Shown piece by piece: positions 24,016-25,023 of a stretch of DNA of 25,023 nucleotides. Both the position numbers and the translations under genes were made by a program. The stretch is from an uncultured Candidatus Peribacteria bacterium. GTDB taxonomy: Bacteria > Patescibacteriota > Gracilibacteria > Absconditabacterales > Absconditicoccaceae. The notes beneath the pieces were generated by a model that was not told where the DNA came from, made no database searches, and saw only the letters and a program-made list of their open reading frames with translations. The DNA lies in the NCBI GenBank assembly GCA_964551805.1, contig CAZKEK010000001.1, forward strand, positions 1 through 25,023. Direction: 5' to 3'. Numbering within the stretch: the stretch's first letter is position 1; each line of letters starts with the position of its first letter.

Positions 24016-24408
24016 TTAATATTTAGTTGAATATTCTCAATCAAGACAACTAAAAAGTTCAATCACAGTATTTCTACTTCTGCAAGAATGAAAGATTTGC
24101 TCTTGATCTAATCAAAGAACTACATGAGAGATACGCTCTTTAGGAGGTTTTCTCAGAAAAACAATATCTCAATTCTGTATTTTATTTACCAATATTTCAT
24201 TATAATTGTGTTCCTCTTTTAGTGTTTTTGGCAAATCTCGAATATAACAAGGTTGTAGATAAATATTTAATGTATCATAAAGAATTTTACGAAGAGCGGA
24301 GATGCAATGAAGACAAGAGATATCTCAATCTAATTGTTCTAATGAATGTAGTTTATTTTTTATGTTAAAGGGAATTCCTATAAGTTTTTTACAATTCTCT
24401 CTATACAT
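24016..24408 (-). CDS. NlpC/P60-like cysteine peptidase/amidase, 130 aa
   Basis: LIGIPF..SCLHCISAL..QNGDIVFL..ISHVVLG..IFHS follows the GxPY/DCS/GDLVF/HV/H order; open only with TGA=Gly; absent from the track. Confidence 0.65.
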
Positions 24409-24493: not shown

Positions 24494-24587
24494 TGGGTGA
24501 TACAGGACTGAACCCCGCAAGTCTGCGGGGCGTGCCTGTGACCTCTTGCACGTCACCCCGATGTATCGGGGCTAGCCAACTGAGCTA
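24494..24587 (-). pseudogene. Broken copy of tRNA-Val(GAC) with two palindromic replacements
   Basis: Blocks TGGGTGATACAGGA, CCTGTGACCTCTTGCACGTCA and CTAGCCAACTGAGCTA are identical to the intact gene, separated by segments holding CCCCGCA-AGTC-TGCGGGG and CCCCGAT-GT-ATCGGGG. Confidence 0.9.
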
Positions 24588-24620
24588 GTATGATAACAAT
24601 AAATCTTATAGTATTTTTAC

Positions 24621-24697
24621 TGGTGGGTGATACAGGATTCGAACCTGTGACCTCTTGCACGTCAAGCAAACGCTCTAGCCAACTGAGCTAATCACCC
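24621..24697 (-). tRNA. tRNA-Val(GAC)
   Basis: GGGTGATTAGCTCAGTTGGCTAGAGCG-TTTGC TT GAC GT GCAAG-AGGTCACAGGTTCGAATCCTGTATCACCCACCA; CCA encoded. Confidence 0.98.
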
Positions 24698-24737
24698 ATA
24701 GAACAATAACTTTACAAAAAGCTCCGAATGTAATGAG

Positions 24738-24779
24738 CCCCGTCTTTAGCGGGGTAGCCAACTGAGCTAATCACCCATA
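24738..24779 (-). pseudogene. 5' fragment of tRNA-Val fused to a palindrome
   Basis: TAGCCAACTGAGCTAATCACCCATA (24755-24779) is identical to 24676-24700 and directly preceded by CCCCG-TCTTTAG-CGGGG. Confidence 0.88.
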
Positions 24780-24787
24780 ACCATATT

Positions 24788-24859
24788 TGACCCGACCAGG
24801 AGTCGAACCTGGGTTACAACCTTCGCAGGGTTGTGTCTTATCCACTAAACGACCGGATC
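24788..24859 (-). tRNA. tRNA-Arg(GCG)
   Basis: GATCCGG/TCGGGTC acceptor, D loop AGTGGATA (A20), CAACC-CT GCG AA-GGTTG anticodon arm, CCAGG-TTCGACT-CCTGG T arm, discriminator A; CCA not encoded. Confidence 0.93.
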
Positions 24860-24865
24860 ATAAAA

Positions 24866-25023
24866 CTAATATACTTTTTACTATTTTATTAACAACGTAA
24901 TATCGTTAACCTAGGTTACCCCGCACTTCTGCGGGCTGTCTTATCCATTAAACGACGAGATTATAAATCTAATATACTTTTTACTATTTTATTAACAACG
25001 TAATATCGTTAACCTAGGTTACC
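24866..25023. repeat. Tandem repeat with 103-bp period; exact 55-bp blocks at 24866-24920 and 24969-25023, running off the window
   Basis: CTAATATACTTTTTACTATTTTATTAACAACGTAATATCGTTAACCTAGGTTACC occurs twice. Confidence 0.95.
24908..24963 (-). pseudogene. Partial copy of tRNA-Arg(GCG) with the anticodon arm replaced by a palindrome
   Basis: AACCTAGGTTAC ~ AACCTGGGTTAC and TGTCTTATCCATTAAACGAC ~ TGTCTTATCCACTAAACGAC flank CCCGCA-CTTC-TGCGGG in place of AACCTTCGCAGGGTTG. Confidence 0.85.

What the first reader, a model, noticed from the sequence alone, without database searches (positions are those of the whole stretch)
24788..25023. 103-bp tandem array of tRNA-Arg half-copies whose anticodon arm is swapped for a palindrome
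Seen: upstream of tRNA-Arg(GCG) the unit [5' leader + acceptor 5' strand + D arm + palindrome + variable loop + part of T stem] repeats with a 103-bp period. The 55-bp block is exact at 24866 and 24969, and a further unit begins at the window edge. In the complete unit the 16-nt AACCTTCGCAGGGTTG, nearly the whole anticodon stem-loop, is replaced by the 17-nt CCCGCACTTCTGCGGGC, a different hairpin of similar size closely related to the one in the Val copy. Inference: this is hairpin-for-hairpin replacement at the anticodon, followed or accompanied by tandem amplification. If co-transcribed with the tRNA it would yield tRNA-like RNAs with no anticodon. It affects the tRNA tied to the CGN recoding.
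Basis: partly seen in the sequence, partly recalled or inferred. Interest (0 to 1): 0.75.

Follow-up and report, generated by a model that had tools for sequence, protein, structure and literature searches.

The report
Hairpin-tagged tRNA-Arg relic repeat array
Just upstream of a working arginine tRNA gene lie about three tandem dead copies of its front half, each with the anticodon arm replaced by a GC-rich hairpin. This is one gene-less example of a genus-wide pattern of hairpin-marked tRNA gene relics that sit near tiny GIY-YIG nuclease genes, and it has no special link to the arginine codon reassignment.

Summary
A 103-bp tandem repeat (24834-25023, 94% identity, 55 bp exact) lies upstream of tRNA-Arg(GCG) on the minus strand. 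Each unit has a roughly 47-nt promoter-like leader, tRNA positions 2-26, a 16/17-nt GC hairpin in place of the anticodon arm, and positions 44-56. The window ends at a 100-N scaffold gap; one more unit, carrying a second hairpin in its D loop, follows the gap. Unitig depth suggests about three units, not a long array.

The hairpins are identical between units, so they are not spacer-like. The copies lack a 3' half and cannot fold as tRNAs.

The pattern is general. In this genome it also affects Val, Cys, Ile, Ser, Leu and Arg(UCG). At the same Arg locus, 10 of 25 congeners carry relics, with different but fully paired hairpins. In one well-assembled congener about 9 of 31 tRNAs have relics. 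At other tRNA loci the same relic design frames 80-aa single-domain GIY-YIG genes; none lies at this locus.

Best reading (0.55): a gene-less relic of break-driven duplication or cassette turnover at tRNA genes, colonised by small mobile palindromes. The closest published analogues are SegB-driven tRNA amplification and Ssn nuclease/hairpin pairs. Earlier notes of this scan describe the same theme on other DNA in at least 23 genomes.

The parts
24787..24860 (-). Functional tRNA-Arg(GCG) gene, acceptor-stem allele GATCCGG/TCGGGTC
   Evidence: ARAGORN; Rfam RF00005 at 55 bits
24861..24907 (-). Leader of the functional tRNA, which is also the leader part of repeat unit 1. It has a promoter-like site: -35 at 24895-24890 and -10 at 24873-24868.
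   Evidence: Promoter scan (the count is not above the shuffle expectation, so the placement is only suggestive); repeat alignment
24908..24919 (-). Relic of tRNA positions 44-56 (variable loop plus the 5' T stem, up to the T-loop GGTT). This is the break point of the copy.
   Evidence: 11 of 12 nt match the real gene at 24806-24817
24920..24936 (.). GC hairpin hp1 (6-bp stem, 4-nt loop), occupying the place of the anticodon arm
   Evidence: Perfect-hairpin scan; RNA fold; an identical copy lies at C1 25178-25193, beyond the window
24937..24961 (-). Relic B, tRNA-Arg positions 2-26. It carries the other acceptor allele (ATCTCG) and an AATGG D loop.
   Evidence: blastn-short; comparison with congener alleles
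24964..25023 (-). Start of repeat unit 2, read on the plus strand: a second leader copy (-35 at 24998-24993, -10 at 24976-24971) plus the 44-56 relic. It is cut off by the scaffold gap at the window end.
24737..24779 (-). Context: 5' relic of tRNA-Val (positions 1-22) followed by a GC hairpin. Same phenomenon, but the subject of a separate finding.
24621..24697 (-). Context: functional tRNA-Val(GAC)
24494..24590 (-). Context: a tRNA-Val copy with two GC hairpins, one in the T loop and one replacing the D-stem/anticodon-stem strand

Best explanation
The array is a non-coding, non-decoding relic. A segment running from about 50 nt upstream of tRNA-Arg(GCG) to the T loop (position 56) became duplicated. 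The anticodon arm of the redundant copy was replaced by a small mobile GC palindrome. The hairpin-bearing 103-bp unit was then re-amplified to about three copies, and the most distal copy later took a second palindrome in its D loop. I infer that the breaks driving this come from the small single-domain GIY-YIG nucleases that nest beside other tRNA genes in this genus. They would act in trans, either on tRNA-gene DNA around the T loop or on single-stranded DNA next to the hairpins, and repair would go by out-of-register recombination. Shown: the anatomy, the recurrence across tRNAs and species, the mobility of the palindromes, the nuclease-tRNA adjacency at other loci, and the mixing of alleles. 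Inferred: that the nuclease causes the breaks, and that the hairpin is its landing pad.
For: Anatomy and copy number.

Recent origin: relic A lies directly after the same leader that precedes the functional tRNA-Arg in the nearest relative G009, which has no relics.

Same locus in the genus: 10 of 25 congeners carry Arg relics. Hairpins sit at 27-43 (8 copies) or 22-32 (3 copies), and the hairpin sequences differ but stay paired. Most 5' copies end at positions 50-57, in the T stem or T loop; a few run on to 61-69, and one copy in G042 is a complete gene killed by three hairpin insertions.

Allele mixing: several relics carry an acceptor-stem allele that differs from the resident gene but is the functional allele in other species. 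This shows exchange between lineages.

Fully assembled counterpart: a three-unit 106-bp array of hairpin-tagged 5' copies upstream of tRNA-Pro in G011.

Nuclease link: 80-81-aa GIY-YIG ORFs (PF01541, 41-61 bits; nearest solved structures are UPF0213 proteins) sit between a real tRNA and a hairpin-tagged copy at Arg(UCG) in this genome and at Met and Thr in G011. About 11-13 of 21 GIY-YIG hits in three congeners lie beside tRNAs.

Palindrome mobility: the same hairpin subfamilies recur at unlinked loci. A C(C/A)CG-plus-hairpin module (or, in D loops, the hairpin alone) lands 5' of TTC(G/A) in T, D and anticodon loops. An 18-nt copy is inserted in frame in gatA of G009 and G016, and survives in decayed form in G020 and G024.

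Published precedents: SegB cuts tRNA genes at a motif that I read as the complement of the T-loop sequence, and it drives tandem amplification (PMC13096335). Ssn single-domain GIY-YIG nucleases bind hairpins in ssDNA and cut a few nt upstream (PMC11893778).
Against: No GIY-YIG ORF lies within about 450 nt of tRNA-Arg(GCG) in any of the 25 genomes examined, so the nuclease link at this locus rests on analogy. Only one tRNA-adjacent GIY-YIG gene was found in this incomplete assembly. The relic hairpins do not match the published degenerate Ssn-related motif. No cleavage data exist, and no mechanism is known for an exact arm-for-hairpin swap. The relic tRNA parts are unusually well conserved for junk, which could point to a function. 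Copy number rests on unitigs at 4-13x depth from the probable source sample.
Confidence: 0.55

Rival explanations
1. Plain replication slippage or unequal crossing-over duplicated the promoter-proximal part of the tRNA gene. Independently mobile GC palindromes, which prefer TTC(G/A) in loop-coding DNA, then settled in the redundant copies because insertions there are harmless. No nuclease is involved.
For: There is no nuclease gene at this locus in 25 genomes. The palindromes also insert elsewhere, for example in frame in gatA and inside NTS-type composite elements. A complete but dead tRNA-Arg copy with three hairpin insertions lies next to a live copy in G042.
Against: The same relic design frames GIY-YIG ORFs at other tRNAs. 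The clustering of breakpoints in the T stem or T loop, and the foreign alleles in relics, are not expected from simple slippage.
Confidence: 0.22
2. The units are functional. Either the extra promoter copies raise tRNA-Arg output, or each unit gives a small structured RNA (a D-arm-like stem plus the GC hairpin) with a regulatory or decoy role.
For: Each unit carries a TTGTTA-N16-TATATT site placed as expected for a tRNA promoter. Relic positions 1-26 are nearly invariant across species, and the hairpins keep perfect pairing despite sequence change.
Against: Promoter-like sites are not above the shuffle expectation. The fold z-score of the unit is only -1.45. Presence is patchy, with no relics in the nearest relative G009. 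The tRNA-Pro array has 17-nt spacers with no room for a promoter. The units have neither an anticodon arm nor a 3' half.
Confidence: 0.1
3. The copies are attachment-site scars left by integrative elements (tyrosine integrases) that target tRNA genes at the anticodon or T loop.
For: From general knowledge, integrases cross over in the anticodon or T loop of tRNA genes. The breakpoints here do lie in those arms.
Against: The units are 103 bp and hold no genes. The gatA-tRNA-Arg-tRNA-Val gene order is intact in all relatives. 5' halves, rather than 3' halves, are what is duplicated. I saw no integrase in the flanks read, where the neighbours are a gatA 3' end and an NlpC/P60 gene, but I did not survey the rest of the contig.
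Confidence: 0.03
4. The array is an assembly or scaffolding artefact.
For: The array abuts a 100-N gap, and the assembly is fragmented: 207 contigs and only 14 tRNAs.
Against: Unitigs from two samples span the unit junctions and both hairpins of relic A. Analogous arrays occur in 150-kb contigs of other species.
Confidence: 0.03

Closest known systems
SegB of phages T4/T6, a free-standing GIY-YIG homing endonuclease in the tRNA gene cluster (PMC13096335)
   Same: It is a GIY-YIG nuclease gene sitting among tRNA genes. It cuts inside tRNA genes at a motif that I read as the complement of the T-loop sequence. It drives tandem segmental amplification of a unit that contains tRNA sequence, with the junction at the tRNA.
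   Different: SegB is a phage protein whose size I did not check; from general knowledge it is several times longer and has a DNA-binding domain. The proteins here are 80-81 aa, catalytic domain only, and chromosomal in a CPR bacterium. SegB amplicons carry intact tRNAs and no hairpin tags. The array studied here holds no nuclease gene at all.
Ssn nucleases and their hairpin motifs (NTS/SRM/dRS3), Chenal et al. 2025 (PMC11893778)
   Same: These are single-domain GIY-YIG proteins of about 94 aa paired with short GC hairpin repeats that flank their genes, and they cut next to the hairpin. This genome also holds 15 canonical NTS-type motifs.
   Different: The relic hairpins do not match the published SRM pattern. 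The paper never mentions tRNA. Membership of cd10448 could not be tested, and the nearest solved structures are UPF0213 proteins.
Small mobile palindromes that enter genes: Rickettsia palindromic elements, yeast mitochondrial GC clusters and Allomyces double-hairpin elements (from general knowledge)
   Same: They are GC-rich hairpin modules in an AT-rich genome, scattered at many sites and tolerated in frame inside a protein gene (gatA).
   Different: The modules here are much shorter (16-22 nt), concentrated in tRNA-derived DNA, and able to replace a tRNA arm exactly.
tRNA gene part-duplications at integrative-element attachment sites (from general knowledge)
   Same: They are partial direct copies of a tRNA gene beside the intact gene, with breakpoints in the anticodon or T arm.
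   Different: There is no island and I saw no integrase in the flanks read. The copies are 5' halves, arranged in tandem with a 103-bp period.

Membership tests
Functional tRNA or tRNA-like RNA | Cloverleaf with paired acceptor stem and T arm | tested here: not met
   The units end at position 56 and have no 3' strand. ARAGORN and Rfam report only the two real tRNAs.
CRISPR-like or spacer-bearing array | Constant repeats separated by differing spacers | tested here: not met
   The hairpin is identical in all units seen (24920-24935 and C1 25178-25193). The array has only about three units.
SegB-type free-standing homing endonuclease locus | GIY-YIG nuclease gene within or beside the tRNA locus | tested here: not met
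   None at tRNA-Arg(GCG) in 25 genomes. The feature is present at other tRNAs.
SegB-type free-standing homing endonuclease locus | Multi-domain enzyme with a DNA-binding domain | tested here: not met
   The ORFs are 80-81 aa and consist of the GIY-YIG domain only.
SegB-type free-standing homing endonuclease locus | Cleavage inside tRNA genes that drives tandem amplification | not testable with these tools
   Only indirect evidence: most 5' copies end at positions 50-57, and arrays exist.
Ssn nuclease / SRM hairpin system | Single-domain GIY-YIG protein of about 90-100 aa | tested here: met
   80-81 aa, PF01541 at 41-61 bits, nearest PDB entries 1ZG2 and 1YWL. These genes lie at other loci, not in the array.
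Ssn nuclease / SRM hairpin system | Hairpins fit the published degenerate SRM pattern | tested here: not met
   The pattern gives 15 hits in the genome, all canonical NTS-type and none in a tRNA locus.
Ssn nuclease / SRM hairpin system | Protein belongs to CDD family cd10448 | not testable with these tools
   No CDD library is available here.
Ssn nuclease / SRM hairpin system | ssDNA-specific cleavage next to the hairpin | not testable with these tools
   This needs biochemistry.
Integrative-element att scar | Island with an integrase bounded by tRNA part-copies | tested here: not met
   The gatA-Arg-Val gene order is intact and the units hold no genes.
Mobile mini-palindrome (RPE or GC-cluster type) | The same module at unlinked sites, including inside coding sequence | tested here: met
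   Hairpin subfamilies are shared between the Val, Ile, Arg and Leu loci and the NTS-type elements. An 18-nt module is inserted in frame in gatA of G009 and G016, decayed in G020 and G024.

The most novel reading that the evidence does not exclude
Hairpin-tagged tRNA half-copies are the working ends of an undescribed class of selfish module. In this class a hairpin-guided, domain-only GIY-YIG nuclease breaks tRNA genes, and a neighbouring spare copy rebuilds them. Arrays like this one would be the expanding and contracting footprint of that process. The turnover would move tRNA alleles between species and could help new decoding tRNAs to spread. In this genome the tRNA with anticodon UCG, the reassigned CGA/CGG reader, sits in such a cassette.
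Probability: 0.3. Interest if true: 0.8.

Novelty: new variant of a known kind. Interest (0 to 1): 0.5.

Why it matters
If the nuclease link holds, tRNA genes of these ultra-small bacteria are under constant attack and repair by a tiny selfish module. That would explain three things: why tRNA loci break assemblies (14 tRNAs recovered here against 33-40 in better-assembled congeners), why tRNA alleles are exchanged between species, and why exact arm-sized hairpins appear in dead copies. It would extend two very recent findings to chromosomal tRNA genes: SegB-driven amplification of tRNA loci, and Ssn nucleases guided by hairpins. It would also offer natural nuclease-hairpin pairs for ssDNA tools. 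This particular array is a by-product rather than the engine, and it is not evidence for anything special about the recoded arginine codons.

Tried and rejected
Rfam at a permissive threshold over the locus gave only the two tRNAs.

RNA evidence: the one metatranscriptome from the source sample laid nothing on the stretch, so nothing can be said about expression.

The published SRM pattern does not match any relic hairpin.

A viral-collection scan for the 7-bp-stem palindrome gave 9 hits, all in GC-rich contigs with no tRNA nearby. These are chance-like and uninformative.

The 50-nt leader inside the unit shows no significant similarity to the relic-to-tRNA spacers of other species, so I could not show a conserved mobile cassette body.

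Full-text searches for palindrome-tagged tRNA copies or for Absconditabacteria tRNA hairpins found no description.

The hairpin as an intrinsic terminator: the genome's terminators use the same stem type followed by a T run, but in the tRNA sense the relic hairpins lack a T run. Only a weak antisense match was flagged.

I considered and rejected a CRISPR-like array, an integrase att scar and an anticodon-less tRNA (see the membership tests).

NCBIfam and PHROGs gave only sub-threshold homing-endonuclease matches for the mini GIY-YIG proteins.

Full report
WHAT IS THERE. The window is AT-rich (about 32% GC), and its long reading frames open only with TGA read as a sense codon (table 25). Two tRNA genes lie on the minus strand: Val(GAC) at 24621-24697 and Arg(GCG) at 24787-24860. 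Upstream of tRNA-Arg, which means at higher coordinates, Tandem Repeats Finder reports a 103-bp period from 24834 to 25023 (1.8 copies, 94%). The 87-nt copies are 82/87 identical, and a 55-nt block is exact.

Read in the tRNA sense, one unit has four parts:
- a roughly 47-nt leader with a TTGTTA-N16-TATATT site placed a few bases before the tRNA start;
- tRNA positions 2-26;
- a perfect hairpin with a 6-bp stem and a 4-nt loop, where the anticodon arm should be;
- positions 44-56, ending at the GGTT of the T loop.

The next leader follows directly.

BEYOND THE WINDOW. The window is the first 25,023 bases of a 46.5-kb contig, and its end abuts a 100-N scaffold gap. After the gap comes one more unit (C1 25124-25240). 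It has the identical hairpin plus a second hairpin inserted in its D loop, and then the 3' end of gatA. The 55 nt before the gap equal the 55 nt after it, so the gap could close with no extra unit or with one.

Unitigs from the probable source sample cover the flanks at 3.7-6.7x and the shared unit segments at 11.5-13.1x. A second sample of the same study has a 133-nt unitig that spans a unit junction. I read this as about three units (range two to four). It is a short array, not a long one. The RNA run laid nothing, so expression is unknown.

NOT PECULIAR TO tRNA-Arg. The assembly holds only 14 tRNA genes, while congeners with few contigs hold 33-40. Several contigs here end in tRNAs or in such copies. 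tRNA loci are therefore under-assembled, most likely because of these repeats.

Most of the loci that did assemble show partial copies beside the real gene, with GC hairpins replacing or splitting segments. Perfect GC-rich hairpins are 9-fold enriched within 450 nt of tRNA genes, and none lies inside a functional tRNA.

THE SAME LOCUS IN THE GENUS. The gene order gatA, tRNA-Arg(GCG), tRNA-Val(GAC) is conserved in the genus. Of the 25 genomes where tRNA-Arg(GCG) was found, 10 carry Arg relics. The main features are as follows.
- Eight copies have the hairpin exactly at positions 27-43, and three have it at 22-32.
- Most 5' copies stop at positions 50-57, and a few run on to 61-69.
- Three genomes also have a 3' relic downstream, which begins in the T loop (or, in G043, at about position 36) and is followed by a duplicated trailer.
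- One genome (G042) has a complete tRNA-Arg copy killed by three hairpin insertions, with a live copy of another allele 56 nt away.
- The hairpin sequences differ between species but remain fully paired.
- One other species also has an array interrupted by an assembly gap.

The nearest relative with a comparable locus (G009, whose tRNA is 99% identical) has no relics. In it the functional tRNA sits directly after the same leader that precedes the most distal relic here. The array is therefore recent, and the distal relic marks the ancestral gene position.

Several relics carry the acceptor-stem allele GATCTCG/CGAGGTC, while the resident gene has GATCCGG/TCGGGTC. The relic allele is the functional one in four other species. 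This shows DNA exchange between lineages at this locus.

LINK TO A NUCLEASE. In this genome an 80-aa GIY-YIG ORF (PF01541, 41 bits) lies between a hairpin-tagged 5' copy that ends at position 54 and the real tRNA with anticodon UCG. A hairpin-tagged 3' copy lies downstream.

In congener G011, tRNA-Met is followed by two 316-bp tandem units. Each holds an 81-aa GIY-YIG ORF (61 bits) that runs into a tRNA copy whose anticodon arm is replaced by a hairpin. Upstream of the same tRNA is an array of 5' copies with the same swap. tRNA-Thr shows the same design.

In three well-assembled congeners, about 11-13 of 21 GIY-YIG hits lie beside a tRNA or a tRNA relic. tRNA flanks are only one to two percent of the genome, so fewer than one would be expected by chance.

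In G011 about 9 of 31 tRNAs have hairpin-tagged relics. One of them is a fully assembled three-unit, 106-bp array of 5' copies upstream of tRNA-Pro(GGG). This is the closest counterpart of the Arg array.

No GIY-YIG ORF lies at tRNA-Arg(GCG) in any genome examined, so here the link is by analogy only.

THE HAIRPINS. They fall into a few subfamilies, with stems CCCCGC/GCGGGG or CCCGA(C/T)/(G/A)TCGGG and variable 4-6-nt loops. These recur at unlinked loci. The genome's ordinary terminators use the same stem type but are followed by a T run, which the relic hairpins lack in the tRNA sense.

In T and anticodon loops a module with a short C(C/A)CG extension is inserted just 5' of TTC(G/A); in D loops the hairpin alone lands at the same kind of site. 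Elsewhere the hairpin replaces a whole arm: the anticodon arm in Arg, Met, Ile and a Lys-like copy, and the T arm in one tRNA-Leu relic.

An 18-nt member sits in frame in the gatA gene of G009 and G016, adding six residues. Decayed copies are present in G020 and G024. So the palindromes are mobile in their own right. They accumulate where insertions are harmless, namely in redundant tRNA copies.

COMPARISON WITH THE LITERATURE. Two papers bear on this.

The first concerns SegB of phage T6. It cuts inside tRNA genes at the motif RAWTSGAAC, which I read as the complement of the T-loop sequence. Its activity is needed for tandem amplification of a unit containing tRNA-Tyr and segB, through recombination at microhomology (PMC13096335).

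The second concerns Ssn nucleases. They are 94-aa single-domain GIY-YIG enzymes that bind short hairpin repeats in single-stranded DNA and cut a few bases upstream, and their genes are usually flanked by such hairpins. The paper does not mention tRNA (PMC11893778).

This genome holds 15 canonical NTS-type motifs of that system, each inside a composite element of about 120 nt. One of these contains the same small hairpin as the Val relic. The relic hairpins themselves do not fit the published motif.

The mini nucleases here are domain-only proteins whose nearest solved relatives are UPF0213 proteins. I could not test whether they belong to the Ssn family proper.

MOST LIKELY MECHANISM. I propose a sequence of events (confidence 0.55). 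A break in or near the T-loop part of the tRNA-Arg gene was repaired out of register, or against a foreign allele. This left a 5' copy ending at position 56 in front of a rebuilt gene with a new leader. A mobile palindrome then replaced the anticodon arm of the dead copy. Further breaks next to the hairpin re-amplified the 103-bp unit, and another palindrome entered the D loop of the oldest copy.

The source of the breaks is inferred to be the genus's tRNA-nesting mini GIY-YIG nucleases acting in trans. The exact arm-for-hairpin swap remains unexplained mechanistically.

The main rival (0.22) keeps the mobile palindromes but attributes the duplications to ordinary slippage. A functional-RNA or promoter-dosage reading (0.10) cannot be excluded without RNA data. 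An integrase scar and an assembly artefact are each unlikely.

VERDICT. The array is a short, gene-less relic of a genus-wide process and not a special feature of the recoded arginine system. Earlier notes of this scan report the same theme on other DNA, in at least 23 genomes, and for the neighbouring Val copies in this window. I re-tested the main claims here. I found no published description of hairpin-tagged tRNA relic arrays. I file this as a new variant of known kinds: nuclease-hairpin pairs and nuclease-driven tRNA amplification.

Noticed in passing
Genome contigs, e.g. C1:43518, C3:10121, C3:19996, C121:1104 (outside the window): Fifteen copies match the Neisseria-type NTS/Ssn-related motif (a CGTCATTCCCGCG... 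hairpin). Each sits in a composite element of about 120 nt with inverted ACGTCATTCC ends and upstream CACGTCATTCC repeats. One copy contains the same small hairpin as the tRNA-Val relic. This is striking for a CPR genome, although the contamination estimate is 6%.
   Followed up: partly
L010 (G009), L012 (G020), L068 (G016), L069 (G024): the gatA 3' end about 200 nt upstream of tRNA-Arg: An 18-nt GC palindrome is inserted in frame in gatA, changing VEDQGE to VEDHPDGSGQAE. It is intact in two species and decayed in two. The gatA in this window lacks it.
   Followed up: partly
G000 contig C130:481-1000 (outside the window): The tRNA with anticodon UCG has G73. It sits inside a GIY-YIG cassette with hairpin-tagged copies on both sides, so cassette turnover could move recoding tRNAs between lineages.
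   Followed up: no
Whole assembly G000: Only 14 tRNA genes were recovered, against 33-40 in congeners. Contig ends and N gaps fall in tRNAs or relic arrays (C1 start, C15 end, C102 start, C121 end, and gaps in C1, C17 and C56).
   Followed up: partly
window 24019-24408 (-): A 130-aa NlpC/P60-family ORF (PF00877, 29 bits) lies directly downstream of the tRNA-Val relics. The longer 217-aa frame listed under table 25 runs into the relic and is probably spurious.
   Followed up: partly
L064 (G045), downstream of tRNA-Arg: A close relative (tRNA-Arg 99% identical) has no upstream Arg array. Instead it has a large tandem array of tRNA-Val relics, each with three or four different hairpins, between Arg and Val. 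This shows fast, lineage-specific turnover.
   Followed up: no
Read laying, run X3: A related organism at 90-95% identity in a third sample has 517 extra letters between the Val relic and the real tRNA-Val. This may be a nuclease cassette at that spot.
   Followed up: no
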